Source: an uncultured Lachnospiraceae bacterium
GTDB taxonomy: Bacteria; Bacillota; Clostridia; Oscillospirales; CAG-272
Direction of reading: 5' to 3'
Assembly: GCA_964631595.1 (NCBI GenBank)
Contig: CAZVXL010000003.1
Span: 9,341-73,340 of the forward strand
Length of the DNA stretch: 64,000 nt
Positions within the stretch are counted from its first letter, which is position 1. Each line of letters starts with the position of its first letter. This document shows positions 2,672-25,868 of this stretch, one piece after another. Below the pieces are notes generated by a model. It did not search any database. It had not been told where the DNA came from and was given only the letters and a program-made list of their open reading frames with translations. Both the position numbers and the translations under genes were made by a program.

Positions 2672-3385
2672 CTACTGTCCGAGAATAGACAACGGAGTCC
2701 TGACAAAAAGCTTTATTGCGACATCCTCCCCGAATTTTCGGCATACGGCGTTGTACGCCTCGGCAAGGCACGGCGGCTTATCTGTCACATCGTGGCAGTC
2801 ATCCGCTATCACATCGACCAAGCCCTTCTTTATGAGGTGCAGGACATAGTGCTTCTCGAAAAAGCCGTACTTTCCCATTACGGCGGCGGCGTTCACCTGA
2901 ATACCCGCGCCGAGCGCTCTCAGCTTTTTGATGAGCTCCGGCTTTGCGGTGATCGCGCTGTATCTTTCGATATGAGCTATAAGCGGTATGAATCCGCTTG
3001 CAAGCAGGCGCGATGCTCCTCCGATGATCTCGTTTCCGTCTGCATACGGATCAAATTCCAGAAGGACATTTCGGGTCTTATTCAGAGTAAGGCATTTTCC
3101 ATTGATAAGATCTGCAACGGAATCATGACAGCAGTACAGCTCCTGCCCGAGAAAAAGCGTCATATCCGGATACTTCTCCCTCGCATACCGAACAGCCCGT
3201 TCGTAGCTGTCGGCAATTCTTTCGGGTACGGAGTGAAAATACCGCGGATTATGGTGCGGTGTCATGCAGACGGTCCTGACTCCGCTCCTGTAGGAGATAT
3301 CAAGCATCCGTTGCATCATTTTCTCGTCAGCAGCTCCGTCATCCACTCCGTACAGCATATGGCAGTGAATATTAACGAGCTTCAT
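2672..3385 (-). CDS. PHP-family protein-tyrosine phosphatase (CpsB/YwqE-like)
   Basis: The sequence MKLVNIHCHMLYGVDDGA...CMTPHH shows the histidine-rich PHP motifs. The track ORF extends to 3436. The ATG at 3385 (M18) has an AGAGGT RBS and lies downstream of the predicted promoter at 3453-3481. Confidence 0.8.
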   Translation of the reverse strand: MKLVNIHCHMLYGVDDGAADEKMMQRMLDISYRSGVRTVCMTPHHNPRYFHSVPERIADSYERAVRYAREKYPDMTLFLGQELYCCHDSVADLINGKCLTLNKTRNVLLEFDPYADGNEIIGGASRLLASGFIPLIAHIERYSAITAKPELIKKLRALGAGIQVNAAAVMGKYGFFEKHYVLHLIKKGLVDVIADDCHDVTDKPPCLAEAYNAVCRKFGEDVAIKLFVRTPLSILGQ

Positions 3386-3452
3386 AAAGCCACATACCTC
3401 TGTATTAGAATGTCTGATAAGCCAAAACATGAACACTTGTACGCGTGATTTT

Positions 3453-3481
3453 ATTATATCACACTATTTTCCGCAAGTCAA
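3453..3481 (-). promoter_or_regulatory. sigma-A-type promoter for the phosphatase/kinase pair
   Basis: The minus strand reads TTGACT - 17 nt - TATAAT with TGn immediately upstream (ttgacttgcggaaaatagtgtgatataat). Confidence 0.5.
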
Positions 3482-3591
3482 GAATTTATAGATTCCCTCT
3501 CAAAAAATCGGCGCGATACCGGCGAGAGAGATTGGGGGAAATAAAGGTCAAATCCGCTCATGCGAATACGTACTTTAACACGGCAAACAGA

Positions 3592-4173
3592 TTATTTCAC
3601 TTGTTTTTTTCTCATGACAAATCTTTTGATAAACAAAATCACGCCCAACGGCCAAAAGATGAAAAATGCCAGAATAATCATCGGCCATGAATACAAAATG
3701 CGTATTTTTCCATTTTTACGGAATTTTTCCTCATCAATAGATCTTGTATCTCCCACAAAAGGCACAGCTTCATAACTTCCCAGTATCGCCTTTATCTCTT
3801 TGATCATCTTTTCTGCGGCAAGAGCTTTGTTTTCGTATGCTGTATACCGCTGAACATTTGTAAGATAAAAGTCAAAATCATCCCTTAATGCACAGTTTTC
3901 AAGCATAAACGGCAGTATTATTTTTCTTTGAGTGATTGCCATATCCACTTCCTTGGAAACCCATTGCGATGATTGAGCCTTTGCGGACAATATGAGCACA
4001 AAAACCTTTGCCTGTTTTATCGCCCGCGGTATTTCCACTGCATAGCTCGAACCTCCCGGTATACACGCCGGTGCCATCCAACACGATATTCCATTATTTT
4101 CAAGAACGGATCTCACCCAGTTTGCTTCCTCTATTTCTTCAGCTTTATAACTGATAAAAACATCTCTATTCAT
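3592..4173 (-). CDS. TIR-domain protein with C-terminal transmembrane helix
   Basis: The N-terminus reads DVFISYKAEE...ISCWMAP...VFVLILSAKAQSSQWVSKEVDMA, a TIR-like layout with the conserved Glu retained. The C-terminus has a hydrophobic helix, ILYSWPMIILAFFIFWPLGVILFI. The start overlaps the upstream stop by 8 nt (4166-4173). Confidence 0.75.
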   Translation of the reverse strand: MNRDVFISYKAEEIEEANWVRSVLENNGISCWMAPACIPGGSSYAVEIPRAIKQAKVFVLILSAKAQSSQWVSKEVDMAITQRKIILPFMLENCALRDDFDFYLTNVQRYTAYENKALAAEKMIKEIKAILGSYEAVPFVGDTRSIDEEKFRKNGKIRILYSWPMIILAFFIFWPLGVILFIKRFVMRKKQVK

Positions 4174-7135
4174 AAGCCGTTTCCCCTGTATTTAATAATT
4201 CAAAAGCATATTTAAAATCCGAGTTACAGTCTATCAGCCTTTCAAACAACTGATAGCCTATATCCGTCTTAAGACTTGCCTTTTCGTTGATCCACATTTT
4301 CACCTGTTCTTTAGAAAACTTCTCCGGCGATTTGCAGCAATACTCGCAAAACGTGTATACTGTTTGCACAAGATTAATATCTCTTGCTATTCGTGCATTC
4401 GTATTTGTGCCGTTATAATAACCGGTCCAAATATTATAATAATAAGTCAAATTAGCAATATTCGGATAAGTTCCCTTTAAGAAAAGCTTTCTTAAAACAT
4501 CATTTTGTTCTCTAAGCTCTTTTTGAGGTTCGATCAAGCTGGTCGTCTGATCTCCTATTGATGCTTCAGCCATATCATGTACCAAAAGCATATCCAGTAT
4601 TTCTTTCTTACAATAGCCTTCCATACTGTGCTCTTCCGGCAAGAAAAACATTGCCACTAGCCAAGCGCTGTACGAATGTTCCGCTATGCTCTCCGGATCT
4701 TCAACACCGAACCTCAGCCATTGTTGCCGTTTTATTTGTTTGAGATCTCTGTATTGATTGTATATCCTTGTAGAAACATCAAACGCTTTATCTTTCAGAT
4801 AAAGATTCAGATCTTCCTCAACACTTCTGAAATAATACAACAACTTGCCCGAAACAATATTTTGCGGTCTTGTTTGATAAACCCTCAAATACTCAAGAGC
4901 TTTGTTAACGTAATAAGATATATTAAACCTCACCGCACATTTTTTATCTTGAATTCTCGCTTGCAGCAAGGTCAGCATACTGACAAGGTTATTTTCAACA
5001 AACTTACCGGTATTATTATACAGGCCGACCTCTATTCGACTATTCAATATCTTTATAGCTTGTTCTCCCGCAGATAGATCTGTATCAAAGTAGTAAGCAT
5101 CGTGTGCCGCCATTTGATAATCATCGCCAAAGTATTCGATTGTTGCGCCACGATTGATAGCATTTGCGACATCATTGGCTACAACAACAGACAGATACTC
5201 ATCCATCATATTAGCCTGACCTTGAAAAAGCAATCCTGTACATATTGCTCTAAACAAAAAATGATTATCGCAATTTTCTTGATTGAACTTATTGTTAGTC
5301 TTAACAAGGGGCTTATATTTAGCAAATTCCCGAGCCAGCATATCGATCGCTTCATTAGCAAGATTACTGAACGATATACGTCCCAACCAATATACCGCAT
5401 TGCTTTTTTGTCGAATATCAAAAGCCTCGTAATTGTCCTTAATAAAGCTCAAAAACATCTCTTGCAGCTCATAGTTATCTTTAAGAAACGATACCAGAAA
5501 ATGATTGGCTGTTGCCGTAAGCATTGTTCCGAAAAAGCTATGCTCATCAAACTTATGATAATTCTTGATCCTATAGACAAAATAGTAGGCTATCAAAAAC
5601 TCAAGATATGTATTGTGTTTATGAGGCAAAGACCACATTGCCCCATTATATTCAATACTGTTCCCGACGCCGGATTGAATAAACACGTAATTATATAACT
5701 CTTGCGAAATTTCAACAAGCTTGTCCTCATCACCATATGTTTCCGACAGCGCCAATTTCTCATACACATCAGTTAGAATCAGATCGGACATACTGTATGA
5801 AGAAAGCATTTCCTTCGCAATAAGTCTCACAATAAATATATCTATCATCGGAAATTTCAGTGCCTTTATACAATTATACACTTCTTCCGCATTCAAATCG
5901 TAATCGTATATTTTAATAACACTCTCGATTATCGCAATAGCAGATGCTTTAGCCTCGATTGGAACCTGATTCAAAACAAATATGTATCCTTTTCCATCGC
6001 CCAGTATCGGAATAACTCGCTTTAACTTAGAACGGTTTTTAATCAGTCCTTTGTCAACAGTGCAAACTCTATTAAATTTGGGAAGGCCTTTCCATAAACT
6101 CAAAACAATACTTTCGGGAGAAATTTTGGAAACATTATGCTCTCGAATCGCCTCGATAAACAGAACCGGTTTTACATCATGGTTGTCATTTACATACCCA
6201 AAAAATTCACAGAACTCCTTCTGTAAAATTTCGGTCATCTGCTCTTGAACATTATTACTGTTATAGGGCAGCTTTTCATAATAACTAGCCGACACATAAA
6301 ACGGTAATGCATTTGATACACCGGATTTGAAGTTTTGCAGCATTTTATAAAACGCAAGCTGGAGGATCATATTTTTAGCACTGCCGGGCAACCCATGCAC
6401 TTGAACACTTGAATCTGCGGCAGAAGACATTTCCTCTACAAGAATCTTAACACAGTCCGCGCCCGAATCAAGTGTTTCTTTATGTTTGTATATAGATACA
6501 GTTTCCTTGAATAATCTTTGAGCATTTGAAAGAACAAATTCAAATCCCTCATCATCCCGTACCTTATCATACAAATTATATGGATATTTTTTGCTCTTTT
6601 CGATAATAATACTTACTATTTCATCGCGCGAAAAATCAAATTTCCGAACACGGTCGGCAGGCGCAGAGGGCTCATGAATTTCCGGTTGCAATACAGTTGA
6701 AGAAATTTCGGATACAGTGATAGGTTTCTCTTTATCAGCAAAAGATCTAATCGTATCGACCAAAGTATTTAAGCCATTATTGATATCATTGTAAGCTTCT
6801 ATCCAATGCTTTCTGCCGAGAAAATAGAGATATTCATCCGTAAACACAAAATCTTGAATTTTAAACGGAATAATGATTTTTTTATTATCAAATGCAATGC
6901 TCACTTCATTGCTGACATGGCCGGAATTATTTGTATTTTCCGAAGCCAAAAGAACCAATAAATCACATTTTTTAATTGCATTAACGATCTGTGTCGCATA
7001 GTTACTGCCGGCTTCCACATTTCTGGGTGCTATCCAACATTTGAAACCATTACTTTCCAAATACTCACAGACTTTTAATGCGACATCTAATTCTTTGGAA
7101 GAATAACTTATAAAAACATGATTCATTACATTCAT
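4166..7135 (-). CDS. TIR / degenerate P-loop NTPase-like (STAND/NACHT-like, tentative) / YfbR-type HD-domain fusion protein, 989 aa
   Basis: The N-terminal TIR reads HVFISYSSKE...FKCWIAPRNV...LLVLLASENTNNSGHVSNEVSIA. A Walker-A-like VHGLPGSAKN lies at nt 6371-6394 and a Walker-B-like PVLFIEAI follows it. The middle region is long and looks helical. The C-terminal HD motifs are ESIAEHSYSAWLVA and LLVHDMAEASIGD (HD codons at 4574-4579), matching the H...HDxxE..GD pattern of 5-prime-deoxynucleotidase-type HD domains. An AGGTGA RBS precedes the ATG at 7135. Confidence 0.7.
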   Translation of the reverse strand: MNVMNHVFISYSSKELDVALKVCEYLESNGFKCWIAPRNVEAGSNYATQIVNAIKKCDLLVLLASENTNNSGHVSNEVSIAFDNKKIIIPFKIQDFVFTDEYLYFLGRKHWIEAYNDINNGLNTLVDTIRSFADKEKPITVSEISSTVLQPEIHEPSAPADRVRKFDFSRDEIVSIIIEKSKKYPYNLYDKVRDDEGFEFVLSNAQRLFKETVSIYKHKETLDSGADCVKILVEEMSSAADSSVQVHGLPGSAKNMILQLAFYKMLQNFKSGVSNALPFYVSASYYEKLPYNSNNVQEQMTEILQKEFCEFFGYVNDNHDVKPVLFIEAIREHNVSKISPESIVLSLWKGLPKFNRVCTVDKGLIKNRSKLKRVIPILGDGKGYIFVLNQVPIEAKASAIAIIESVIKIYDYDLNAEEVYNCIKALKFPMIDIFIVRLIAKEMLSSYSMSDLILTDVYEKLALSETYGDEDKLVEISQELYNYVFIQSGVGNSIEYNGAMWSLPHKHNTYLEFLIAYYFVYRIKNYHKFDEHSFFGTMLTATANHFLVSFLKDNYELQEMFLSFIKDNYEAFDIRQKSNAVYWLGRISFSNLANEAIDMLAREFAKYKPLVKTNNKFNQENCDNHFLFRAICTGLLFQGQANMMDEYLSVVVANDVANAINRGATIEYFGDDYQMAAHDAYYFDTDLSAGEQAIKILNSRIEVGLYNNTGKFVENNLVSMLTLLQARIQDKKCAVRFNISYYVNKALEYLRVYQTRPQNIVSGKLLYYFRSVEEDLNLYLKDKAFDVSTRIYNQYRDLKQIKRQQWLRFGVEDPESIAEHSYSAWLVAMFFLPEEHSMEGYCKKEILDMLLVHDMAEASIGDQTTSLIEPQKELREQNDVLRKLFLKGTYPNIANLTYYYNIWTGYYNGTNTNARIARDINLVQTVYTFCEYCCKSPEKFSKEQVKMWINEKASLKTDIGYQLFERLIDCNSDFKYAFELLNTGETAYE

Positions 7136-7143
7136 TTTTTCAC

Positions 7144-8025
7144 CTAATTGTTTATCAAAGTTTTTTCATTCTCACTTGTATTTGCCATTGCCAAATACGG
7201 GTATTTTTTCAGTATCATAGCGGCGGAATATGTCGTATCTTCCATATCATGTTTTGACATATTCTTAATTCGCTTGAAACAATATATATAGAGAAAAACA
7301 ACAAATGCACAAAGAACACCTGTCGCTACCGTTGTTTCGATTGCGCAGCAATAATCATACAAGCCATGAGCTAATACCGGTATCAATAAACTCAGTAAAA
7401 AATAAGTTTTACCGGAAAACTCCACAGCATCTTTACTCACAATTCCCGCTTGTTTCAAAGCCCGTTCCTGTTGCTTTGCTTTCTCATATATGTGCCAAAA
7501 GCTATAATAATACCCCATTAAAACAGCAAAGAACATATGTCCGGGCACAGACATCACTGCGCGCATTAATGCGTTTATCCAGCCGTTTTCCAAAACATAA
7601 AATACATTTTCCAATGCAGCAAAACCAAGTGAAACGAAAACCGCGTATATCAATCCGTCAAACAAGCTGTTAAAGTTTCTGTTTTTTCGAGTGACAAAAA
7701 ACAGGACAAGAAACTTCACCCCCTCCTCAACCAAAGCAACACCAATAAAATACTTACATGCAGTATATACCTTGTAAGTATTTCCGACAAGGTAAAGTCC
7801 ATCCTCGTATTCTACAGCAAACGGGGTAAAAGCTCTGTGAATCAAGTCAAAAAGCACTGACTCGATTTCGGCAGCCGGAAGACAGATCATTGCTCCCAAA
7901 AGAAGAAGACACACTAACAGTCCGATCGGCTCTTTCTCAACACGATCTTTTTTAAAAACGTATATACATAATGTGAAAGCGGGAAACAATGCAGCACAAA
8001 TCAACAGTATTTCATTCAATCCCAT
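7144..8025 (-). CDS. PrsW-family intramembrane metalloprotease
   Basis: The protein is polytopic. It carries the PrsW signature motifs ALVEEGVKF (nt 7711-7737) and AHGLYDY (about nt 7351-7371). A GAGGAG RBS precedes the start. Confidence 0.75.
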   Translation of the reverse strand: MGLNEILLICAALFPAFTLCIYVFKKDRVEKEPIGLLVCLLLLGAMICLPAAEIESVLFDLIHRAFTPFAVEYEDGLYLVGNTYKVYTACKYFIGVALVEEGVKFLVLFFVTRKNRNFNSLFDGLIYAVFVSLGFAALENVFYVLENGWINALMRAVMSVPGHMFFAVLMGYYYSFWHIYEKAKQQERALKQAGIVSKDAVEFSGKTYFLLSLLIPVLAHGLYDYCCAIETTVATGVLCAFVVFLYIYCFKRIKNMSKHDMEDTTYSAAMILKKYPYLAMANTSENEKTLINN

Positions 8026-8041
8026 TACACATCTCCTCGTA

Positions 8042-8605
8042 TTATAACAGTTTAATTAAAAACATAAATCCGGTAAGTATGATCAAAAAAGCGAAATTAA
8101 ACAATGAAAACATTCCGATATAGTATCCTGTTTTATCGGGATTATGCTTTACGTACTCACGGAACGTGATCAAGCTTGCCAGAGAAGAAATAAGTGTACC
8201 TACTCCTCCTATATTAACACCGACAAGTAGATCCGCATAATTATTTGTAAACTGAGACAACAGTATTGCGGACGGAACATTACTGATACACTGACAAGAC
8301 AAAACGCTAAACAACAAGGTGCTCTTATTCAAAAGAGTTGAAAACAGATTTTGGACTGCATCTATCCGCGCCATGTTACCGGCGAAGATAAAGAAGAACA
8401 CAAATGTAAACAGCAATCCGTAATCAACCATCTTTAAGGCTTTTCTATCAGCGAAAACAAGAACCGCCGGAATGACTATCAAACCTATCAAGTAAGGAAT
8501 CCCGCGAAAAACGATCAAAATCGACAGTGCAAACAATATCAAATACAAGACTGTTTTCTTCGGGTCTAATACTATCTTTTCATCGGACAGTTTTAACGGC
8601 TCCGA
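8042..8605 (-). pseudogene. 5-prime-truncated remnant of an ArsB/NhaD-superfamily anion permease (C-terminal half only)
   Basis: The sequence ...MVDYGLLFTFVFFFIFAGNM...CISNVPSAILLSQF...GVNIGGVGTLISSLASLITF resembles the C-terminal repeat of ArsB/NhaD/CitMHS-type permeases. Only about 190 aa of homology are present, against roughly 400 aa expected. The first 43 codons of track ORF 8042..8734 merely read through the 3-prime end of the TIR gene in another frame. Confidence 0.55.
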
Positions 8606-8606
8606 C

Positions 8607-9074
8607 TTAACAAATATAAAGCAGCAAACAGTTATCCGTTGTGCTATGATGAGTATTTGCGAGCAGTATTTGAAATGCCGGAGGCACTGCCGCATTGTCC
8701 AGATAAATAGGATATAAACGCTTGCCGTTCTCACGCGCTACAATTATCTCCATTCCGCAAAAAGGAGAATTCATTGAAGCTTCTGAAACAAACAGCAAAA
8801 CAGCCTCGGAGCCTTCAATACGCTGGCGAAGTTCATCCCTAAAATCATTGCCCGTTTCACATGACTCATCATACCAAAGCCTGTATTTACGGTCATTTAA
8901 GGCATCCAGAATGGGATATACCTTTTCAGTGTCCCTGTGAGAATAGCTTACAAAAAGATAAGGTTCATTGCCTATATATGCCTCAAACTTCGTTTGCATA
9001 TTCACATACCCCTCAATTTCAATATTGTGAATCTTTTCTGTGATCTGGTTTGCCATAACGATCTCTCCTTTCAT
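8607..9074 (-). CDS. small stand-alone TIR-domain protein
   Basis: The sequence YLFVSYSHRDTEKVYPILDALNDRKYRLWYDE...AVLLFVSEASMNSPFCGMEIIVA shows a TIR layout with a conserved Glu. The more likely start is the ATG at 9056 (MANQITEK), preceded by AAGGAGAG. Confidence 0.7.
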   Translation of the reverse strand: MKGEIVMANQITEKIHNIEIEGYVNMQTKFEAYIGNEPYLFVSYSHRDTEKVYPILDALNDRKYRLWYDESCETGNDFRDELRQRIEGSEAVLLFVSEASMNSPFCGMEIIVARENGKRLYPIYLDNAAVPPAFQILLANTHHSTTDNCLLLYIC

Positions 9075-9077
9075 TTG

Positions 9078-10883: not shown

Positions 10884-11052
10884 ATTTCCTCCAACAACAC
10901 TGTACCGTACAGATTCCAAGTATTCATGCAATAGCAACTCAACCGATCTATATCTTTCCAATTACAACAGAGTATCCGTCAAAAGACGATCAATTCAGCA
11001 AATATTTGAAATTTCACTATGACTTATCAGTTCAAGCAAGCGCCAAAAGGCA

Positions 11053-11081
11053 AGTATAAAATATTTATTTCTTCTTGACAA
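11053..11081 (-). promoter_or_regulatory. candidate internal sigma-A-type promoter upstream of the RyR-domain gene
   Basis: The minus strand reads TTGTCA - 17 nt - TATACT (ttgtcaagaagaaataaatattttatact). AT-rich DNA makes chance matches likely. Confidence 0.3.
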
Positions 11082-11210
11082 AAAGCTAATATCCGGATTT
11101 CGACAAGCTCATTATCCCCAATAAAAGAACTTTATCGGGGATAATGAATAAAGAAGTAATCTTGTTTCTATCGTGATTCAATTATAGAATTCGGCAAAAA
11201 CACAATAGCA

Positions 11211-19137: not shown

Positions 19138-19167
19138 ATTACCTCCCCTAAAAACTTTAGTTTTATA

Positions 19168-22100
19168 TTATTTAATAAGTGAACGCAGTTCTTCGATTTT
19201 TTCATCAAACTTAAATGTGTTGAGCTTCTTGATCTTATTGCTCACCTTACGGAAAACCATATTAACAACACGATTATCGGTGATTTCGGTATTCTTTCTC
19301 ATAGTATCGTTCTCGTTGTAAGCATCATTGTTGAAATTATCAATAAACAACCTGAACTGAGCCTCCAATCGACTCGCAAGGAACGGATCGCGATCGGCTT
19401 CTTGTTCGTATTTACCCACTTCTTTTTCCAAAACAGCGATAACACTGTCGATCATGATCGAAAGCTCGTTATCATCCATCTTGGAGCGAGGCAAGGAATT
19501 ATAATATGCCAGCGGGATTTCAAATACACTGGTAGGAGCCGCATGGCCATCACCTATCTTAAAATTGGATGTGTCACGAACGAATGTGCTTTCTGCATAT
19601 CTATGATTAGAGTCAATGTCATACTTGCAACGTTCTTCCTGCATTTCATAAATTTTCGCAACAGAAGCTCTGTCTCTATAAAGAGAATCCAACACCTCGT
19701 AAAATTCATCACACTCCGTGTTGTTGGAAACAACAAGTGATGTTCTATCGCCTTCTGTATCCTCAAGAGCATAGATACGCTTTTGAGCATCATATCTCGA
19801 GGACGGATGAGTAATGATCATACCGTGCACAACGCCATACACCAATGCAGAATGGATCTTGACCATTTCGTCATAATGAGCACTGAGAGATATCTCGGGC
19901 ATTTCGGTAAGTGAATCCCAACGCTTATCAATATGCAAAGAAATAGTTGAGCTCTTGGTGGAATCAGGCCCAATATTCTTGATGTAATCGTGATAAGCCT
20001 GATAGTAAATACCCGCCTCTTCGTTATACTGTGCATCATCATTATATTCGTCAGGGCTTTTAAAACGAGACAACATATCAGGTGTAATATTATACATAGC
20101 ATTGAAGAAATGCATTTCGTATTTCGAAATTGTATTTGTTCCTGTTAATGAAATCTTGAAAGGCGCTGCCAATTTTTTGATATCGGTATCACGCAATTCA
20201 TCCAACTTTTTATTGTATGCACAAAGAGATACCAATCTGGGTTCATTAAAGTTTGCGTATCCAATTCCGGGGGATGCAAGTTTTTTTCCAAACTTGATCT
20301 TATCCCTAATATATTCATCTCTCTTAGAATCAGATATTTCGGGAGCAAACACAATTTCGTCTTCGTCAGCATTCTCGACTGCCTTAAAATATTCCTTGAA
20401 TGCACACTCTTGTTTAATAGCGGAAATAATGTTCATATTAAGAACACCGTCACACTCCTCGCGAACAGACTCCTTGAAGTAATCAATGAGAACTGTGTCG
20501 AAAATATCTATTGACGGTTTTGCAAGGACGGGATCATACCGGGCAACGCGCTTATTTTCAGCATTGGTCTTAATCGCATCGAAAATCCTAGCACATAAAT
20601 CAGAGGGCAACATCAAATTATCGCCACTCGTCGGGCATATTTGTGTCAATCTATCTAAGCAAGCACGGTCAGCACAAACATAGGAAATGCTGTTTCCTTC
20701 GCTGAACTTAAGCTTATCAACGATTTCATCCTGTGCTTTGGAAAGCAACATTACCTTACTTTCAAAAGAAGCATAGAATTTTTCAAACTCATCGCAAAGT
20801 TGCTGCAAGTAATCCTTAGCAACTTTATAAGACGATTCTTTGAGGGTACTTTCGCAATATTCCTTAACCAAATCAGAATAAGCCGCAAACAACTCATTCA
20901 ACTTTGTCCACAAAGCTTTGTATCCGCCGATTTTTTCAAAAAATGAAGGCTCACTCTTTTCAAGCTTACATACAGCATCAAAATTAACCTCAACATTTTT
21001 ACTTGTAAATCCGCCACGAACATCAAAATAATCCCTGTCATTTGCGCTGGGTGAATAAATAAGAAGTTCATTAAATGTTTTGGTTACATTTGCCTCGGCC
21101 GTCTTATGAGCTTCTTCAAACCTATCTTTTAACGTGTACAAAACATAGCGCATTGCATTAGGATGCATCACGCCCTCACTGCCATCAAGAAGTTTTTCAA
21201 TATGGAAAGATTCAACATCTGCCTGAATAGAAGGAGCATCAAACAATATGGAACGAGCCGCAGATTTTGCCGCAGATGCAGCATTTTTCTTGATCTCGTT
21301 TTCATAATTTCTGACCTCGCGAAGATTGGCTTCCGCCTTTCCTCTCAAAGCTTCATTGTTTTCATAATCCTTTGGCTCACCGTGCTTTTCTGCCTTTTCC
21401 TTCAGATTCTTAACTTGAGGATTACTTTCAAATGACTTACGAATTTCGGCATCAAAAGCAGCCATAAAAGCGCCCATTTTGACATTCATCTCAGCCTGAA
21501 CCTTATCAACATCATTTGCAAGGTTCCGCTTTATATCGGTATCAAAACGCGATTTTCCTTTATTAATACGATCCACATAAACTCCCGAAAGAGTCGGTGC
21601 AGCTTCAGTTGAATATGCTCTTCTCTTTTTGAACTCGGCTTTTTCTTTTTCAAAAGCTTTATCATACTTAAGCCATTCGCCTACGGTTTCACCGTCTCCG
21701 ATGCAAGAGATAGCTCTTGAATATGCCACATACTCAAGAATATCCTCATAAGGATACTTCAAAACAGAAGCACCGATACCGCCAAATCGGTTACGTCCCA
21801 AATTATCTCCATTGGCAAATTCTTTAATAATATTGTCCTCCATGCCGAAAGCATCCTTTTCCATAGGTCCGATATTTTGCTCATAAAGGCTCTGTGCGGC
21901 AAATTCTTTGTACTGATCAAGAGTCAGCATACTTTCCTGACTCTTATCAACTCTGTCAAGAAGGAAACAGAAATCAAACGGCAATCCCTCAAGCTTATCT
22001 ACACCTTTGGTTGTTGTCGGAATATCAATATAAAGATCTTTATATCTTTCCAGATCCTTGCGGACACCGCAAAATCCGCTTGCTTTGATCATGAATGCAT

Positions 22101-22767
22101 TGATTTCTTTGATCGTTGCATAACCATTTCTACGCAAGCTTTCTTTTTCGGTTTCCGTACTGATAACGGTATCCATAACGCCGGGGAGGAGCAAATAGCC
22201 GCGAATGATCGCAGATTTCTCGCGATAATGCTTATGCAAGTACTCACGAATCAGCATACCAACAGTCATAGCGATACCCGAGCCGGTACCGCCGGCGGCC
22301 GATGAAACGATAACAACTCTGAGTGTCTGCTTAAACTCACCGCCGTCTTTAAGGAAAAGGTCGTCAATCGCTTTGTATAATCCTTGAATTTCACCGGTTT
22401 TGATCGTTGCATTTAATGCAAGACGCGATATAGCGCGAACCTGACCTGCACCCTCCGATACAGTTTTAGAATAGAGTGTAGTATTATTCGGGAACCAGTT
22501 ATTGCGAGCATCATCGTCGTTTTTCAAATAATCGAGTACGCTTTGTGTTGAAGATGTTTGTATCCGAATTACATTCGCTTTGGAATTTTTGATCCACTTA
22601 AGATCATTTGCATTGGTATCCATGACAACAAACTTAATATTGTCGATTTCCGAACCTCTGCAACGCTCTGCGACCTTAGTAACAATATCGGAGCCAATAC
22701 CGCCGACTCCAACAAACAAAGTTTCCTTAGTAACATTAAATTGAATGTTCTCTTTTTTAACCGACAT
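19168..22767 (-). CDS. tubulin/FtsZ-superfamily GTPase-like protein (Tubulin_2/FtsZ-like family candidate), 1199 aa
   Basis: The N-terminal glycine loop reads LFVGVGGIGSDIV. A T3-like SEGAGQVRA follows. The signature SSAAGGTGSGIAMTV matches the tubulin pattern [SAG]-G-G-T-G-[SA]-G exactly. I verified it on the DNA at 22276-22296, whose reverse complement GCCGGCGGTACCGGCTCGGGT encodes AGGTGSG. A C-terminal extension of about 850 aa follows and looks largely helical and charged. A GGAGG RBS lies 21 nt after the vWA gene stop. Confidence 0.75.
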   Translation of the reverse strand: MSVKKENIQFNVTKETLFVGVGGIGSDIVTKVAERCRGSEIDNIKFVVMDTNANDLKWIKNSKANVIRIQTSSTQSVLDYLKNDDDARNNWFPNNTTLYSKTVSEGAGQVRAISRLALNATIKTGEIQGLYKAIDDLFLKDGGEFKQTLRVVIVSSAAGGTGSGIAMTVGMLIREYLHKHYREKSAIIRGYLLLPGVMDTVISTETEKESLRRNGYATIKEINAFMIKASGFCGVRKDLERYKDLYIDIPTTTKGVDKLEGLPFDFCFLLDRVDKSQESMLTLDQYKEFAAQSLYEQNIGPMEKDAFGMEDNIIKEFANGDNLGRNRFGGIGASVLKYPYEDILEYVAYSRAISCIGDGETVGEWLKYDKAFEKEKAEFKKRRAYSTEAAPTLSGVYVDRINKGKSRFDTDIKRNLANDVDKVQAEMNVKMGAFMAAFDAEIRKSFESNPQVKNLKEKAEKHGEPKDYENNEALRGKAEANLREVRNYENEIKKNAASAAKSAARSILFDAPSIQADVESFHIEKLLDGSEGVMHPNAMRYVLYTLKDRFEEAHKTAEANVTKTFNELLIYSPSANDRDYFDVRGGFTSKNVEVNFDAVCKLEKSEPSFFEKIGGYKALWTKLNELFAAYSDLVKEYCESTLKESSYKVAKDYLQQLCDEFEKFYASFESKVMLLSKAQDEIVDKLKFSEGNSISYVCADRACLDRLTQICPTSGDNLMLPSDLCARIFDAIKTNAENKRVARYDPVLAKPSIDIFDTVLIDYFKESVREECDGVLNMNIISAIKQECAFKEYFKAVENADEDEIVFAPEISDSKRDEYIRDKIKFGKKLASPGIGYANFNEPRLVSLCAYNKKLDELRDTDIKKLAAPFKISLTGTNTISKYEMHFFNAMYNITPDMLSRFKSPDEYNDDAQYNEEAGIYYQAYHDYIKNIGPDSTKSSTISLHIDKRWDSLTEMPEISLSAHYDEMVKIHSALVYGVVHGMIITHPSSRYDAQKRIYALEDTEGDRTSLVVSNNTECDEFYEVLDSLYRDRASVAKIYEMQEERCKYDIDSNHRYAESTFVRDTSNFKIGDGHAAPTSVFEIPLAYYNSLPRSKMDDNELSIMIDSVIAVLEKEVGKYEQEADRDPFLASRLEAQFRLFIDNFNNDAYNENDTMRKNTEITDNRVVNMVFRKVSNKIKKLNTFKFDEKIEELRSLIK

Positions 22768-22788
22768 GATATATTCCTCCCAGAATAA

Positions 22789-25023
22789 TTATTTTATTGT
22801 TTTTATTTTACATACCAGTGTAGCCACTCCGTCAGATCTGGAAAGTTCAAACCGAGGAGCGCAACTTAATTCTTGGTTGATCGGAGCGATTGATTGTCCT
22901 CTTTCGGCATTTCTTACATCTGTAGATTTCATCCACTGCCCATCGTAGTTTATATACTTTGTTCCGGCCACTTTCATTTCATCGCAGGGTGAATCGATCC
23001 CTATCACAGCCACTCGTCTGCGATTAGATTTAGTGAAGTGATTATCCACAGCTCGCAAATCAAATGTAACCGAGCATTGTTCACCGAAATCAACCGCAGA
23101 AGGACCATTGATCGTCAAGATTTTTCCTTTACGTGCGTATAAAACCTCAACAAACTCCGAATCCAACTCGCCCGTCGATATTGACGTAAAACTGGCTGTA
23201 TCCTTTACGATCATCTTAGGCAAGGATTTTTGGAGCATATAGAACAGCCAAATCAAGAACAAAGCCAAGATCAAAAGTATCCACCAAAGATTTCTTATAA
23301 GCCAAGACAAAAACGCTCCATACTTTCCTATCTCAAACTCAACAGACACTTCCTGCGCCTTGACTTCATTGTCATATTCATCTACATAAGTGGCAGTTGC
23401 CGATAATTTGTATTTTCCTGTATTGGGCTCCGTATACTCTCCCGACTCATTTTGAGCTATGTAAACATTATAAGCGGACTCACCTTGAATCGGCTCACAT
23501 CGGTATTTCAAATCACCCGATGCTGTAATGGTCAAATCAATGCTTGCCAGCTGTTCTTCGGTCAAAGGCTGACCATCGATCAACAAAGAAATTTTTACAG
23601 GTTTCCATTCATCATGATCCTTCAATTTGTACCATGTTTGTTCCGCCGATACGCTTAGTTTGATATCAACCGATGACTTCTTGACATATAGACCTGTTAA
23701 CCAATCAAATCTCGAATCATCTTTACTGGTGATCTTATATTTCTCGAGGTATTTGCCTTCAATATAAATGTCAACAGACTCATTTGGTTCAAAAGTTATT
23801 GTCGCTTCTTCGGGATATTCGGTATATCCGGAATCATTTGATTTCTTTACGTATGTTTTTAGCTCAACATCTTTTCCCATCAATTCATGAGAAGTCACAT
23901 CTTCGCCTGTCGAAGCATCTACTATCTTGCTGGAGACCGTATATTCTCCGGACACAAAATCATCCGAATTATCCACTATTTGACCGTCGCTGTTTACAAA
24001 TGATATATCCACATCAACATTTGGCTCATAAAATATCTCGATCGTATCGGCGCCGCTATATGATAATGTATACTCACCCTTTGGACAGCCGGAAAATGTC
24101 ACTACCTGTCCGGCAAGTGAAGTATCAACTAAAGCTTGTGCATAGCCTGTTGCCTTAATGTTGCTGTATCTACGCTGCCCGCTATCTAATGAGATCGCGA
24201 CCTCATTTCCGTTTGAATCTTTCAATGAAGTGATCTTTGCGTTTTCTCCCTGAGCAAATACGATTACATTTTTCATTGATAGATCAAGATTTAATACCTC
24301 ACCGTTCAAACGGTCACTCGGAAGGACAGAACGCTGAAAGATCAAATTGCAAATGTCTATCAAATCATCTTTAAGGCTTACATCCGAGCTTTTCTTGGCA
24401 AAGAAATTATTTGCCTCATCAGCCTGCAACTCCATAGCCCCGTCAAATCCCAAATACTGAATTTTAACGTCATCCGAAGCCAACCCCGATACTCTTGCTT
24501 GCAGATCGAAATTACTTCCTTGACCGCGGGCATCCTGATTAAAAGCACCGTCCGTCAGAATTATCAACCATTTTTCATTCGCATTCGAAGACCCGCTGAG
24601 GTACTCGTACGCCTCAGTGATCGGAGCAAATGGTGTATTTGACGGATTTACAGTATAAAGGTTCGAGATTTTATCTATGTCGCTTTTACTTTTTATTTCT
24701 ATAGGAGCGTAGCTTCCTCCGGAGCTGGGCTGAGAGCCGTCCGTAGTCACCTCCCACATAGGGTATACATAGAGCTTATCTTTATCATAATTAAGCATAG
24801 AGGCAAATATCTCCATTGCATACTTTGCCCTACACCAGCCATAGCTTTGATAGTACATAGATCCGGAATTATCGAAAACCACAGCTATATCATAGCTTTT
24901 CTCAACCTTGGTCACATCTGCCGCACTTACCCTCAGCGGGATCGTGGCTAATGTCCCAATCATTATTAACATCAGCAACAGCGATGAAAGAGCCCGATAA
25001 AAAGTCTTTGATTTTTTTCTCAT
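22789..25023 (-). CDS. secreted/surface vWA-domain protein with a single C-proximal TM helix and ~140-aa cytoplasmic tail
   Basis: The signal peptide reads LSSLLLMLIMIGTLATIPLRVSA/AD. The vWA MIDAS motif is DIAVVFDNSGSM (DNSGS at nt 24859-24873) and a later LIILTDGAFN follows. A beta-rich middle region precedes the TM helix NLWWILLILALFLIWLFYML, which is followed by a soluble tail. An AGGAGG RBS precedes the start. Confidence 0.75.
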   Translation of the reverse strand: MRKKSKTFYRALSSLLLMLIMIGTLATIPLRVSAADVTKVEKSYDIAVVFDNSGSMYYQSYGWCRAKYAMEIFASMLNYDKDKLYVYPMWEVTTDGSQPSSGGSYAPIEIKSKSDIDKISNLYTVNPSNTPFAPITEAYEYLSGSSNANEKWLIILTDGAFNQDARGQGSNFDLQARVSGLASDDVKIQYLGFDGAMELQADEANNFFAKKSSDVSLKDDLIDICNLIFQRSVLPSDRLNGEVLNLDLSMKNVIVFAQGENAKITSLKDSNGNEVAISLDSGQRRYSNIKATGYAQALVDTSLAGQVVTFSGCPKGEYTLSYSGADTIEIFYEPNVDVDISFVNSDGQIVDNSDDFVSGEYTVSSKIVDASTGEDVTSHELMGKDVELKTYVKKSNDSGYTEYPEEATITFEPNESVDIYIEGKYLEKYKITSKDDSRFDWLTGLYVKKSSVDIKLSVSAEQTWYKLKDHDEWKPVKISLLIDGQPLTEEQLASIDLTITASGDLKYRCEPIQGESAYNVYIAQNESGEYTEPNTGKYKLSATATYVDEYDNEVKAQEVSVEFEIGKYGAFLSWLIRNLWWILLILALFLIWLFYMLQKSLPKMIVKDTASFTSISTGELDSEFVEVLYARKGKILTINGPSAVDFGEQCSVTFDLRAVDNHFTKSNRRRVAVIGIDSPCDEMKVAGTKYINYDGQWMKSTDVRNAERGQSIAPINQELSCAPRFELSRSDGVATLVCKIKTIK

Positions 25024-25307
25024 TAGTTCCTCCTGATAATGCCGTAAAGTTGCATGGTCTCATTTTTATAAATCGGATTCCCTTCAAAAACGAGAATCCT
25101 AAAAAAACAAAGTCGGAGTATCGGATGTTTACAGCTAATCCGTATTTTATATTCTTCAACCGTAAGTTCGATCAATAGTTCAACCGACTCGAAAATATTA
25201 CGCAAATATTAATTCATCCACATAGAATATATCCGGTATAGCAATGATTAGTTATTAATTATAATTGGTATAAAAAACAAAAACAAATATTTCGACATTT
25301 TTCTTAC

Positions 25308-25336
25308 AGTATACATTAAAATTATATGTTTGTCAA
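25308..25336 (-). promoter_or_regulatory. candidate sigma-A-type promoter of the island operon
   Basis: The minus strand reads TTGACA - 17 nt - TATACT (ttgacaaacatataattttaatgtatact), about 285 nt upstream of the vWA start codon. The context is AT-rich, so the call is only moderately supported. Confidence 0.4.
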
Positions 25337-25469
25337 TATAATTAAGTCTTATAATTTAATATTTTATGTACGGATGAAGCAAATAAACTACACGGTATAT
25401 CAATGTATAAATTAAAAAAATATTAACGAACCACTCTTGATCAATACAAGTAAAAGTCCTATACATAGG

Positions 25470-25515
25470 AAACACAAAAACGCATAAACTCCCGATAAAA
25501 TCGGGAGTTTATGCG
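25470..25515 (-). terminator. rho-independent terminator insulating the island from upstream (tRNA-side) transcription
   Basis: A perfect 15-bp stem (cgcataaactcccga / tcgggagtttatgcg, 25481-25495 and 25501-25515) closes a 5-nt loop. On the minus strand it is followed by UUUUUGUGUUU. Confidence 0.8.
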
Positions 25516-25706
25516 TATACATTACACAGTATTTACGACCGAATACAGTGGCTTTTGAAAGCCGCTTCCCTTTCATGGCGGATCCATGGTGCTTTTATGT
25601 ATCAGTCACAGCGGATCGTTATTTTACAGCTATCCGATATTTTGTTTATCCGGGCGGCTGTCATACACGCTTGGAATTTACTGAGTGCGGGTGTGTACAC
25701 GATGCT

Positions 25707-25868
25707 TTAGTCGTCCATCTCGGCATTCTCTGCCGGAGCCTCAAGTCCTTTCCGGATCTCATCGCAAAGCGATTTCATCCACCGAAGGTGGATTTCTTCC
25801 GCAAAGCCATCGTTTCCCCCGTTCGCAAACGCCGACGTATTTGCTTCGCAAATCCGTGCGGTTCTCAT
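25707..25868 (-). CDS. small hypothetical ORF (53 aa), function unknown
   Basis: My translation is MRTARICEANTSAFANGGNDGFAEEIHLRWMKSLCDEIRKGLEAPAENAEMDD. A GAAGGA RBS lies about 11 nt upstream. The ORF is below the size cut-off of the track and has no recognisable family. Confidence 0.3.
   Translation of the reverse strand: MRTARICEANTSAFANGGNDGFAEEIHLRWMKSLCDEIRKGLEAPAENAEMDD

What the first reader, a model, noticed from the sequence alone, without database searches (positions are those of the whole stretch)
3440..25540. Sharp AT-rich ~22-kb island facing the 3-prime end of tRNA-Val, without any mobility genes
Hand counts of 60-nt lines give 16/60 and 20/60 G+C inside the island (20101-20160 and 7141-7200). 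Outside it they give 33/60 and 39/60 (33001-33060 and 45601-45660). The transition is abrupt at about 3.45-3.6 kb, next to the cps-like promoter, and at about 25.5 kb, at a strong terminator. All ten island genes are on the minus strand. The intact tRNA-Val gene lies 560 bp to the right with its 3-prime end pointing into the island, the classic integration side for genomic islands. Yet I see no integrase, recombinase, transposase, phage or conjugation gene, and no convincing flanking direct repeat. This points to horizontal acquisition from a low-GC donor followed by loss of the mobility module, or to acquisition by homologous replacement.
Basis: partly seen in the sequence, partly recalled or inferred. 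Interest (0 to 1): 0.7.

Follow-up and report, generated by a model that had tools for sequence, protein, structure and literature searches.

The report
Imported tubulin-like gene island beside tRNA-Val
A 22-kb block of foreign, AT-rich DNA sits between a tRNA gene and a capsule locus in some strains of an uncultured gut Clostridia species; it is an ordinary horizontally acquired island with no mobility genes, but it carries a conserved, uncharacterised tubulin-like membrane gene set plus TIR genes.

Summary
Island G+C is 0.38 against 0.51-0.53 in the flanks. GC3 is 0.35-0.42 against 0.55-0.72, with no overlap, and the preferred codon differs for 17 of 18 amino acids. tRNA-Val(GAC) lies at 26081-26157 on the minus strand with its 3' end facing the island.

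The proposed test could be run. Sister strains of the same species (flanks 95-98% identical) join tRNA-Val directly to the cps promoter. They have 166 nt where the window has 22,279 bp (3492-25770). There is no integrase, no att repeat and no target duplication. The junction lies about 310 nt beyond the tRNA.

The cargo is a mosaic:
- A four-gene core: vWA, a Tubulin_2/FtsZl1 protein, a 738-aa membrane protein, and a 1905-aa protein with HExxH and transglutaminase motifs. This order is conserved in the Clostridia genomes examined (74-82 of 86 loci).
- A channel-like RyR protein.
- Remnants of a TIR-LRR gene and a transporter gene, left by a deletion.
- PrsW, TIR-HD and TIR-TM genes.

Elsewhere the core matches its host's G+C (r=0.92) and sits among housekeeping genes, so here it is an unusually recent import. 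Its function is unknown. Verdict: an ordinary island mechanism with moderately interesting cargo.

The parts
3492..25770 (.). The island as defined by comparison: 22,279 bp present in the window where island-free sister strains have 166 nt
   Evidence: In L107/L108, homology to the window ends at 25771 and resumes at 3491. The second carrier L111 places the left end at about 3510.
22789..25023 (-). vWA744: signal/anchor segment, extracytoplasmic vWA domain with a DxSxS MIDAS motif (VVFDNSGSM), one TM at 579-597 and a cytoplasmic tail of about 150 aa. First gene of the core cassette.
   Evidence: Pfam VWA E=1.3e-3, below the cut-off. The motif is read. A homologue lies upstream of the tubulin gene in 82 of 86 loci.
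19168..22767 (-). Tub1199: FtsZl1-type tubulin-like GTPase (residues 17-350) with a helical C-terminal extension of about 850 aa. It has no TM segment.
   Evidence: Pfam Tubulin_2 E=1.5e-55. GGTGSG is invariant in A2. The AF2 model's N-terminal domain matches TubZ (E=2.6e-5), FtsZ and tubulins. There are 803 homologues.
16921..19137 (-). TM738: core protein of unknown family. A 538-aa cytoplasmic part, a TM hairpin (539-557 and 573-591), a very long helix and a small beta domain.
   Evidence: No Pfam, PADLOC or PDB match. Model pLDDT 84.6; best Foldseek E=0.09, to ClyA-type pore formers, not significant. Present in 78 of 86 loci.
11211..16928 (-). giant1905: about six N-terminal TM segments, a long unannotated region, a charged linker (1000-1200), a 4-Cys zinc ribbon (1290-1315), HExxH (1407-1411) and a transglutaminase-like Cys1718/His1744/Asp1759 core.
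   Evidence: Pfam Transglut_core E=1e-5. PDB 9crn_A E=1.6e-18 over residues 1555-1849. All motif residues are invariant in 24 of 24 relatives. Present in 74 of 86 loci.
9078..10961 (-). TM627: multi-TM N-terminus, a Rossmann-like (TrkA_N-like) part and a C-terminal RyR domain. It is the frequent fifth gene of the cassette.
   Evidence: PDB bacterial-RyR chimera 6uhi E=2.9e-7. Pfam RyR and TrkA_N are sub-threshold. The family occurs in 29 of 83 loci, mostly directly after the giant gene.
8607..9074 (-). Remnant (N-terminal 155 aa, TIR domain) of a TIR-LRR gene
   Evidence: Pfam TIR_2 E=3e-19. The intact 549-aa homologue L072:3132-4781 has TIR_2 plus LRR_5 (E=5e-86). DNA homology stops at window 8631-8641.
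8042..8635 (-). Remnant (3' half) of a CitMHS-family transporter gene, joined to the TIR remnant by a 1.77-kb deletion
   Evidence: Window 8635-8063 matches L035 15425-15945 and L072 5420-5902. The intact gene L072:4781-5929 is CitMHS, E=8e-29.
7144..8025 (-). PrsW-family intramembrane metalloprotease
   Evidence: Pfam PrsW-protease E=5e-30.
4166..7135 (-). TIR-X-HD protein (989 aa): N-terminal TIR, an unannotated middle of about 650 aa, and a C-terminal HDDC2/YfbR-type HD phosphohydrolase
   Evidence: Pfam TIR_2 E=8e-19 and HD_3 E=1.5e-23. PDB HDDC2 4dmb E=4.5e-7.
3592..4173 (-). TIR-TM protein (193 aa): TIR domain with a C-terminal membrane anchor
   Evidence: Pfam TIR_2 E=1.2e-20, with weak ThsB-like PADLOC hits.
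25308..25336 (-). Promoter-like site (TTGACA-17-TATACT, 11/12) in the 22-28% G+C zone upstream of the vWA gene. Probable island operon promoter.
25480..25516 (-). Intrinsic terminator (17-bp stem followed by a T-run). It lies inside the inserted DNA and insulates the island operon from read-through from the tRNA side.
   Evidence: (I21).
25771..26080 (-). Host DNA next to the tRNA: hairpins (26044-26082 and 25879-25927), a degenerate copy of the tRNA 3' end (25925-25947) and a Gut-1-like element (25767-25843). It is shared with island-free strains and relatives.
26081..26157 (-). tRNA-Val(GAC), intact, with its 3' end towards the island
   Evidence: ARAGORN. Rfam tRNA 70.2 bits.
3453..3481 (-). 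cps promoter (TTGACT-17-TATAAT with extended TG). The left junction lies about 10 nt upstream of its -35 box.
2672..3436 (-). CpsB-type PHP tyrosine phosphatase, the first host gene to the left of the island
   Evidence: NCBIfam Cps4B E=1e-45. Pfam CpsB_CapC in L001.

Best explanation
SHOWN:
- Window 3492-25770 is a strain-variable genomic island of 22.3 kb. It lies in an uncultured gut Clostridia species whose island cassette is closest to those of Acutalibacteraceae MAGs.
- The island sits between the tRNA-Val downstream region and the promoter of a capsule locus, and replaces 166 nt found in island-free sister strains.
- Its base composition and codon usage are foreign to the host.
- It has no integrase, transposase, att repeats or target duplication.

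INFERRED (origin):
- It came from a Clostridia lineage of about 38-40% G+C.
- It entered, and now moves between conspecific strains, by recombination across the conserved flanks, either homologous or homology-facilitated illegitimate recombination. A tRNA-targeting integrase was not involved.
- The tRNA's neighbourhood is a synteny breakpoint, not an att site for this element.

CARGO (shown):
(a) A conserved four-gene core: an exported, membrane-anchored vWA protein; a soluble FtsZl1/Tubulin_2 GTPase with an 850-aa extension; a hairpin-anchored 738-aa protein; and a 1905-aa polytopic protein with a zinc ribbon, an HExxH zincin-like site and a transglutaminase-like Cys-His-Asp site.
(b) A channel-like TM-RyR protein.
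(c) Add-ons: a deleted TIR-LRR/transporter pair, PrsW, TIR-X-HD and TIR-TM.

FUNCTION (inferred, about 0.4):
- The core is a membrane-bound, GTP-driven filament machine of the kind Makarova and Koonin predicted for vWA/FtsZl1 operons.
- The vWA domain engages a ligand outside the cell.
- The tubulin-like protein assembles under the membrane on the cytoplasmic parts of the vWA and TM738 proteins.
- The membrane-tethered double peptidase then cleaves or cross-links envelope or partner proteins, giving envelope or membrane remodelling.
- The TIR genes are separate, probably NAD-consuming, conflict-type passengers.
For: Origin:
- Composition and codon discontinuity.
- Empty site in L107-L110, from four samples. 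L107 links to the Der-PlsY-MTase-tRNA contigs by a 30-nt (k-1) overlap in the same sample and by a 42-nt overlap with L007.
- Flanks of carriers and non-carriers are 95-98% identical.
- Flank genes of this species occur on 16-43 public contigs, while the vWA, PrsW and TIR-TM genes occur on one contig each and the tubulin gene on three.
- Cassette G+C tracks host G+C in 46 genomes (r=0.92, maximum difference 0.107); the difference here is 0.13.
- The second carrier L111 has the same left junction, and its cps flank is 99.7% identical to island-free L107.
- No repeat of the tRNA 3' end at the far border. The local tRNA-like units also occur in island-free strains and relatives.

Cargo:
- Domain calls.
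- Order vWA-Tub-TM738-giant in 74-82 of 86 loci.
- Catalytic motifs invariant in 24 of 24 relatives.
- TubZ/FtsZ-like fold.
- Three of the four core proteins are membrane-anchored.
- The vWA/FtsZl1 pairing and the membrane-remodelling proposal come from PMC2875224.
- Neighbours in 73 genomes are housekeeping genes, not defence or mobile-element genes.
Against: - The donor is not identified. The best relatives are only 71-77% identical in DNA and cover only 9078-25024.
- The right junction is seen only in the window's own assembly. Independent contigs confirm only the left junction (L001, L111).
- The two carriers differ by about 5% in the island, the same as in the flanks. The island is therefore not very recent, and loss in some strains cannot be separated from gain in others.
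- No recombination tract shows up as a divergence gradient in the flanks.
- The function has no experimental basis anywhere.
- Three TIR genes in this island, and TIR or NACHT genes next to a few other cassettes, fit a defence role equally well.
- The Pfam vWA score is below the curated cut-off.
Confidence: 0.8

Rival explanations
1. Integrase route. The island entered by site-specific integration into the 3' end of tRNA-Val, like classical tRNA-linked islands, and later lost its integrase and att sites.
For: The tRNA 3' end faces the island. Degenerate copies of the tRNA 3' end with hairpins lie just downstream of the tRNA, as successive integrations would leave. In two other genomes (L027, L029) tRNA-Ser genes lie upstream of the cassette in the same orientation.
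Against: The junction is 310 nt beyond the tRNA, and the intervening DNA is shared with island-free strains. The tRNA-like fragments also occur in island-free strains and in the more distant relatives (MTase 66% identical). There is no repeat at the left border. There is no integrase remnant in the island. No integrase or transposase family recurs among 138 neighbours of the cassette in 73 genomes.
Confidence: 0.1
2. Old resident, recently lost. The island was acquired before the sampled strains diverged, and the island-free allele arose by deletion or by replacement with another allele. The polymorphism would then reflect loss rather than gain.
For: Between the two carriers the island is about 95% identical, the same as the flanks. 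Carrier L111 and non-carrier L107 have cps flanks that are 99.7% identical.
Against: The 147-166-nt filler in L107 has no similarity to either island end or to any island DNA; scores equal those of shuffled sequence. A simple deletion therefore cannot produce that allele. GC3 is completely un-ameliorated. The more distant relatives lack the cassette at this locus. Either way the island is foreign in origin.
Confidence: 0.2
3. Defence reading of the cargo. The vWA-tubulin-TM738-giant cassette, with its TIR and RyR partners, is an anti-phage or conflict system. In this reading a surface sensor triggers filament assembly, which activates proteases, an ion channel and NAD-degrading TIR effectors, causing abortive infection.
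For: This island carries three TIR-domain genes with weak ThsB-like matches. All three keep a Glu at the position of the catalytic Glu in the SxWxxxE motif (read; the motif is from general knowledge of TIR NADases). TIR-LRR is a recurrent neighbour in 6 loci, TIR in 3, and a NACHT gene is upstream in L013. The cassette is patchily distributed and is strain-variable here.
Against: PADLOC has no model for any core protein. Only 4 of 138 nearest neighbours in 73 genomes hit a defence model, and the rest are housekeeping genes. The cassette's G+C is normally equilibrated with its host, which suggests long residence. There are no close plasmid or phage copies.
Confidence: 0.25
4. Artefact. The contig is a chimeric metagenomic assembly that joins DNA from a low-G+C organism to a high-G+C one.
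For: The source appears to be a metagenome-assembled contig of 103,725 nt. The right junction has no independent confirmation.
Against: A chimera would need two precise junctions in intergenic DNA. The left junction is reproduced in independent assemblies of other runs: L001 at 100% identity and L111 at about 95%, which is a different strain. Host homology resumes exactly on both sides of the empty site.
Confidence: 0.02
5. Intrinsic composition. The cassette is AT-rich wherever it occurs, for example because of its amino-acid content or selection, so the G+C drop would not indicate transfer.
For: Several relatives are 2-5 points below their flanks in G+C (L009, L012, L086).
Against: Across 46 genomes cassette G+C ranges from 0.36 to 0.63 and follows host G+C (r=0.92, mean difference 0.009). 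Here GC3, which is largely free of protein constraint, differs by 0.25.
Confidence: 0.02

Closest known systems
vWA/FtsZl1 (Tubulin_2, PF13809) operons predicted by Makarova & Koonin 2010 (PMC2875224)
   Same: A Tubulin_2 protein lacking the FtsZ/tubulin C-terminal domain lies directly downstream of a vWA protein with an intact MIDAS motif and a signal peptide. The partners are mostly membrane proteins without recognisable domains. Distribution is patchy, with both vertical inheritance and transfer.
   Different: OmpA-like, P-loop GTPase and Ser/Thr kinase partners are absent. Instead there is a fixed pair: a 738-aa hairpin protein and a roughly 1900-aa polytopic protein with zinc ribbon, HExxH and transglutaminase motifs. 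The main text of that paper does not mention such partners. The tubulin-like protein has an 850-aa helical extension, and about half of the cassettes add a TM-RCK/RyR channel-like gene.
Classical tRNA-linked genomic or pathogenicity islands and integrative elements
   Same: The island is close to the 3' end of a tRNA gene, has deviant G+C and codon usage, is present in some strains of a species and absent in others, and carries accessory cargo.
   Different: There is no tyrosine or serine recombinase and there are no tRNA-derived direct repeats at the borders. The insertion point is 310 nt downstream of the tRNA. 166 nt of resident DNA were replaced rather than duplicated.
Capsule-locus-type allelic replacement by homologous recombination of flanks (general knowledge from streptococcal cps switching and from homology-facilitated illegitimate recombination in transformable bacteria)
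   Same: A large heterologous block lies between conserved flanks, no mobility genes are needed, and alternative alleles segregate in one species. The left flank here is itself a cps locus.
   Different: The exchanged block is not a cps allele. No recombination tract was detectable in the flanks. Competence of this organism is unknown.
Thoeris and other TIR-based anti-phage systems
   Same: Three proteins have TIR_2/ThsB-like domains that retain the putative catalytic Glu.
   Different: There is no ThsA (SIR2 or Macro-SLOG) partner, and no PADLOC system-level match. The architectures TIR-X-HD(HDDC2-type), TIR-TM and TIR-LRR are not those of the named systems.
TubZ / FtsZ / CetZ filament-forming GTPases
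   Same: The fold of residues 1 to about 350 matches (Foldseek TubZ E=2.6e-5; FtsZ, CetZ and tubulins follow) and the GGTGSG nucleotide-binding loop is present.
   Different: Sequence identity is 12-16%. There is no canonical C-terminal domain. The gene context is not plasmid partition or cell division.

Membership tests
Integrase-mediated tRNA-linked genomic island | Lies at the 3' end of a tRNA gene | tested here: inconclusive
   The tRNA-Val 3' end faces the island, but the comparative junction is 310 nt downstream of the tRNA, beyond DNA shared with island-free strains.
Integrase-mediated tRNA-linked genomic island | Encodes, or retains a remnant of, a site-specific recombinase | tested here: not met
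   None of the ten ORFs has a recombinase or transposase domain. The ORFs fill the island.
Integrase-mediated tRNA-linked genomic island | Bounded by direct repeats derived from the tRNA 3' end (attL/attR) | tested here: not met
   No copy is found at the left border with up to 3 mismatches or by blastn-short. The local degenerate copy at 25925-25947 also exists in island-free genomes.
Genomic island in the broad sense (horizontally acquired, strain-variable block) | Composition and codon usage deviate from the host | tested here: met
   G+C 0.38 against 0.52; GC3 0.38 against 0.63 with no overlap; 17 of 18 preferred codons differ.
Genomic island in the broad sense (horizontally acquired, strain-variable block) | Present in some and absent from other closely related genomes at the same locus | tested here: met
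   Empty site in L107-L110. Carriers are the window, L001 and L111.
vWA/FtsZl1 operon (Makarova & Koonin 2010) | Tubulin_2-type FtsZ-like GTPase with the nucleotide-binding loop and without the FtsZ_C or Tubulin_C domain | tested here: met
   PF13809 E=1.5e-55, no C-terminal domain hit. GGTGSG is invariant. TubZ-like fold followed by a helical extension.
vWA/FtsZl1 operon (Makarova & Koonin 2010) | Adjacent gene for a vWA protein with an intact MIDAS motif, often secreted or membrane-bound | tested here: met
   The gene lies 22 nt upstream. DNSGS motif, signal/anchor segment and one TM. Pfam VWA is only E=1.3e-3, below the cut-off. The adjacency is conserved in 82 of 86 loci.
vWA/FtsZl1 operon (Makarova & Koonin 2010) | Frequent partners: diverged P-loop GTPase, Ser/Thr kinase, OmpA-like protein | tested here: not met
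   None is present in the island or among recurrent neighbours.
Thoeris defence system | ThsB-type TIR protein together with a ThsA (SIR2 or Macro-SLOG) effector | tested here: not met
   Only weak ThsB-model hits to the TIR domains (E=1e-6 to 1e-8) and no ThsA-like protein.
Tubulin/FtsZ superfamily | GTP-dependent polymerisation | not testable with these tools
   Only motif and fold evidence is available.

The most novel reading that the evidence does not exclude
The four-gene core (surface vWA sensor, tubulin-like GTPase with a giant helical extension, hairpin-anchored helical protein, and a polytopic zincin plus transglutaminase-like double peptidase) could be a previously unrecognised transmembrane machine based on a cytoskeletal filament. 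In this reading it would convert an extracellular binding event into filament-driven activation of proteases, channel-like proteins and TIR effectors. That would make it a new class of bacterial immune or cell-fate system, and one that can move between gut Clostridia without any mobility genes of its own.
Probability: 0.15. Interest if true: 0.75.

Novelty: new member of a known kind. Interest (0 to 1): 0.4.

Why it matters
As a transfer event this is a clean but ordinary case. It shows that a large block can enter and circulate in an uncultured gut species with no mobility genes. It also shows that closeness to a tRNA does not by itself mean integrase-mediated insertion.

The cargo is the more useful part:
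- It defines a strictly conserved, experimentally untouched four-gene tubulin-like module, found in at least 114 species-level genomes of gut Clostridia.
- All catalytic motifs are intact.
- There is a natural presence/absence polymorphism within one species. That provides a natural comparison for asking what FtsZl1 systems do, a question open since 2010.

Tried and rejected
- Genome scan with the 404-aa methyltransferase next to the tRNA found no relative.
- Exact look-ups of the methyltransferase and the tubulin protein failed. The cause may be the choice of start codon or gaps in the index.
- att-like repeats were searched three ways. Only a local degenerate copy was found, and it proved to be an old host feature.
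- No gradient of divergence in the flanks, which would mark a co-transferred tract: identity is 94-98% throughout.
- No similarity between the 166-nt filler of the empty site and the island ends; scores equal those of shuffled sequence.
- DNA homology to the closest cassettes cannot define the ends of the transferred unit. It is 71-77% and covers only 9078-25024.
- Plasmid and phage collections gave only distant hits of 24-28% identity. The Bacillus record has no annotation.
- Literature: nothing on FtsZl1 function after 2010, nothing linking it to TIR or defence, and no paper for 9CRN.
- The idea that the cassette is always AT-rich was rejected.
- The idea that it habitually sits in defence islands or next to integrases was rejected.

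Full report
OBSERVATION. The compositional island is real.
- One-kb windows have 0.34-0.43 G+C from 4 to 26 kb and 0.49-0.61 elsewhere. Region 3441-25540 is 0.383, against 0.513 on the left and 0.530 on the right.
- At 200-nt resolution the steps lie at about 3300-3500 and 25500-25600, with a zone of 22-28% G+C at 25100-25500.
- Codon statistics settle the point. GC3 is 0.35-0.42 in all ten island ORFs and 0.55-0.72 in 30 host ORFs (p=3e-6). The preferred codon differs for 17 of 18 amino acids. Tetranucleotide distance to the host profile is four times higher inside the island.
- tRNA-Val(GAC) lies at 26081-26157 on the minus strand, with its 3' end towards the island.
- The 'cps-like promoter' is TTGACT-17-TATAAT at 3481-3453.
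- All island ORFs are on the minus strand and none has a mobility domain.

WHAT THE GENES ARE. Reading in the direction of transcription:
- vWA744: signal/anchor segment, a vWA domain with a DNSGS MIDAS motif, one TM and a cytoplasmic tail.
- Tub1199: Tubulin_2 (E=1.5e-55), an invariant GGTGSG loop, no TM and an 850-aa helical extension.
- TM738: no family. A 538-aa cytoplasmic part followed by a TM hairpin.
- giant1905: about six TMs, a zinc ribbon, HExxH and a transglutaminase core. It matches PDB 9crn_A with E=1.6e-18.
- TM627: multi-TM with a C-terminal RyR domain (E=2.9e-7 to 6uhi).
- A 155-aa TIR ORF that overlaps a 230-aa ORF.
- PrsW.
- A 989-aa protein with TIR, an unannotated middle and an HDDC2-type HD domain.
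- A 193-aa TIR-TM protein.

The overlapping pair is a deletion scar. In L072 and L035 the same DNA encodes an intact 549-aa TIR-LRR protein (LRR_5, E=5e-86) and a 382-aa CitMHS transporter. In the window 1.77 kb between them is missing.

THE CORE CASSETTE ELSEWHERE.
- The tubulin-like protein has 803 homologues, with a continuum of 45-86% identity among the best 120, all about 1200 aa and all from Clostridia metagenomes.
- A scan of one genome per species found it in 114 species: Acutalibacteraceae, Oscillospiraceae, Ruminococcaceae, Lachnospiraceae and others, all uncultured gut MAGs. The closest, at 86%, are Acutalibacteraceae.
- In 86 loci the order vWA-Tub-TM738-giant is kept wherever the contig allows (82, 86, 78 and 74 loci respectively). 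TM627 follows in 29.
- Other recurrent partners are few: a TM protein with a Castor/Pollux-type RCK domain (13 loci), an 84-aa protein and a 155-aa protein (9 each), TIR-LRR (6), and an HTH regulator upstream (5).
- The zinc-ribbon cysteines, HExxH and the transglutaminase Cys-His-Asp are invariant in 24 of 24 full-length relatives.
- The AF2 model of Tub1199 (pLDDT 75) has an N-terminal domain most like TubZ (E=2.6e-5), then FtsZ, CetZ and tubulins. Nothing solved matches the rest.
- TM738 models well (pLDDT 84.6) but has no significant structural relative. The best match, E=0.09, is to ClyA-type pore formers and is a lead only.
- A Bacillus genome keeps only the vWA/tubulin-like pair. The pair is therefore the old core and TM738 plus the giant are a Clostridial elaboration.
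- The pairing was predicted in 2010 as a membrane-remodelling system (PMC2875224). I found no later functional work and no link to TIR or defence.

IS IT FOREIGN HERE? Three lines of evidence say yes.
1. Composition. Across 46 genomes with adequate flanks, cassette G+C runs from 0.36 to 0.63 and follows the host's (r=0.92, mean difference 0.009, maximum 0.107). In the window the difference is about 0.13, outside that range. The cassette is thus not intrinsically AT-rich, and this copy has not equilibrated.
2. Context. In those other genomes the nearest non-partner neighbours are housekeeping genes. No integrase or transposase family recurs, and only 4 of 138 neighbours hit a defence model. None of the loci shares the window's flanks.
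3. The empty site (the decisive evidence).
   - The species is sparsely sampled, but exact look-ups of its Der protein returned seven contigs, five of which (of those checked) end at tRNA-Val.
   - A CpsB variant from the same samples lies on contigs that begin in the tRNA. L107 reads, in order: the tRNA-Val 3' end and hairpin (window 26112-26043, 97%); the small repeat and ORF region (to window 25771); 166 nt absent from the window; then window 3491-1 at 95.5%.
   - L005 and L107 come from the same sample and overlap by exactly 30 nt, as neighbouring unitigs of a 31-mer graph do. L007 overlaps L107 by 42 nt across the tRNA end.
   - Flanks of carriers and non-carriers are 94-98% identical on both sides, so they belong to one species.
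   - The window therefore has 22,279 bp (3492-25770) where sister strains have 166 nt.
   - At 90% identity the flank genes were seen on 16-43 public contigs, the vWA, PrsW and TIR-TM genes on one each and the tubulin gene on three.
   - More distant relatives, with MTase proteins 65-66% identical, keep rSAM-275aa-Der-PlsY-MTase-tRNA-Val. After the tRNA each lineage differs, and none has the cassette there.

HOW IT GOT THERE.
- There is no recombinase. No repeat of the tRNA 3' end occurs at the left border. There is no target duplication. The right junction is 310 nt beyond the tRNA.
- The one tRNA-like fragment (25925-25947) belongs to tandem units made of a hairpin, a conserved box and a tRNA-3'-like piece. 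These also occur, in varying copy number, in island-free strains and in the more distant relatives. They may be very old scars or an RNA element (sub-threshold Gut-1 hit). They do not bound this island.
- A second carrier (L111, from another run) has the same left junction, with the island end at about 3510. It differs from the window by about 5% in both island and flank. Yet its cps flank is 99.7% identical to island-free L107.
- The filler in L107 is unrelated to island DNA, so the empty allele is not a simple deletion product.
- The simplest reading has two steps. An import from a Clostridia lineage of about 38-40% G+C was fixed by recombination in or near the flanks. The island allele was then exchanged among conspecific strains by homologous recombination. 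Both steps are inferred.
- The donor is unknown. The best DNA relatives are 71-77% identical and cover only 9078-25024. The PrsW, TIR-HD and TIR-TM end and the promoter zone have essentially no relatives.
- A chimeric assembly is unlikely. It would need two exact junctions, and independent assemblies reproduce the left one.

HOW THE CARGO MAY WORK. All of this is inferred.
- Three of the four core proteins are membrane-anchored and the tubulin-like protein is soluble.
- I favour, at about 0.4, the picture of a membrane machine proposed in 2010. The exported vWA domain binds something outside the cell. The FtsZ-like GTPase assembles beneath the membrane on the cytoplasmic parts of vWA744 and TM738. 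The tethered zincin/transglutaminase-like peptidase then acts on envelope or partner proteins. A channel-like RyR or RCK protein is an optional fifth part.
- Long residence, host-like G+C and housekeeping neighbours elsewhere speak for a cellular role.
- A defence or conflict role (about 0.25) is suggested by this island's three TIR genes, which keep the Glu of the SxWxxxE motif, by TIR-LRR as a recurrent neighbour, and by the strain variability. The neighbourhood statistics speak against it.
- The TIR genes look like separately acquired passengers. The TIR-LRR N-terminus is 74-83% identical in loci whose tubulin is only about 41% identical.

COMPARISON AND VERDICT.
- As an island, this is a broad-sense genomic island. 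It meets the composition and presence/absence criteria. It fails the integrase and att criteria of classical tRNA-linked islands.
- As cargo, it is a member of the vWA/FtsZl1 operon class with lineage-specific partners.
The caveat is that the tRNA is a neighbour, not a demonstrated target.
- Novelty: new member of a known kind. Interest is moderate (0.4). The mechanism is ordinary, but the cargo is a well-defined, conserved, untested system with a natural within-species polymorphism.

Noticed in passing
window 25771-26082; L104 11290-11770; L105 11290-11620; L107 1-280: Downstream of tRNA-Val lie tandem units made of a terminator-like hairpin, a conserved box of about 60 nt and a degenerate copy of the tRNA 3' end. 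Copy number differs between strains and relatives. One unit gives a sub-threshold Rfam Gut-1 RNA match (25767-25843, 30.4 bits against a gathering score of 50, E=0.0013), and the island's right junction falls at its end.
   Followed up: partly
window 8042-9074; L072 3132-5929; L035 13252-16021: The 155-aa TIR ORF and the overlapping 230-aa ORF are the two ends of a 1.77-kb deletion. The deletion destroyed a bacterial TIR-LRR gene (549 aa, BspA-type LRR) and a CitMHS transporter gene.
   Followed up: yes
L052 15902-16279; L056 17472-17858; L071 22463-22834; L072 3120-3557: The TIR domain of the TIR-LRR gene is 74-83% identical to the window's in loci whose tubulin-like protein is only about 41% identical. 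The TIR-LRR module therefore seems to move, or be conserved, independently of the core cassette.
   Followed up: partly
L035 9383-13236: In this MAG the tubulin-like gene stops at about residue 1029 and abuts a TM627 homologue. TM738 and the giant gene are missing, so this appears to be a decayed cassette.
   Followed up: no
L031 (CANQTR010000011.1), cassette 4972-16676: Cassette G+C is 0.51 against a left flank of 0.62. This is the only other large mismatch among 46 genomes and may be a second recent transfer.
   Followed up: no
L002-L007 ends; L107/L108 starts: Public unitig assemblies of this species break at tRNA-Val (five of the seven Der-side contigs were checked). Same-sample contigs on the two sides overlap by k-1 = 30 nt. 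The assembly graph therefore branches at the tRNA, because of strain variation, a repeated tRNA, or both.
   Followed up: yes
window about 32000-33000: Identity to sister strains drops to about 85% in this 1-kb bin, against 94-99% around it. This is a second, small variable spot near the plus-strand ORF at 31843-32523.
   Followed up: no
L112 (NZ_CP093325.1 1865610-1892414): The PLSDB record 'plasmid p1' of Bacillus sp. N5-665 is 5.5 Mb and is evidently a chromosome. It carries a vWA (730 aa) and tubulin-like (1123 aa) pair, with no detectable homologues of TM738 or the giant protein.
   Followed up: partly
window 11211-12400 (giant residues 1555-1849): The transglutaminase-like end of the giant protein has a solved relative, PDB 9crn_A (E=1.6e-18). 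No paper could be found for it in the library.
   Followed up: partly
window 25711-25870 (minus strand): A 52-codon ORF with a plausible ribosome-binding site starts in host DNA and runs across the right junction (25771/25770) into island DNA. If it is real, its C-terminus was replaced by the insertion.
   Followed up: no
L013 3845-6313; L014 1105-3573: A NACHT-type NTPase gene (822 aa) lies upstream of the most distant cassette examined in detail (46% tubulin identity).
   Followed up: no
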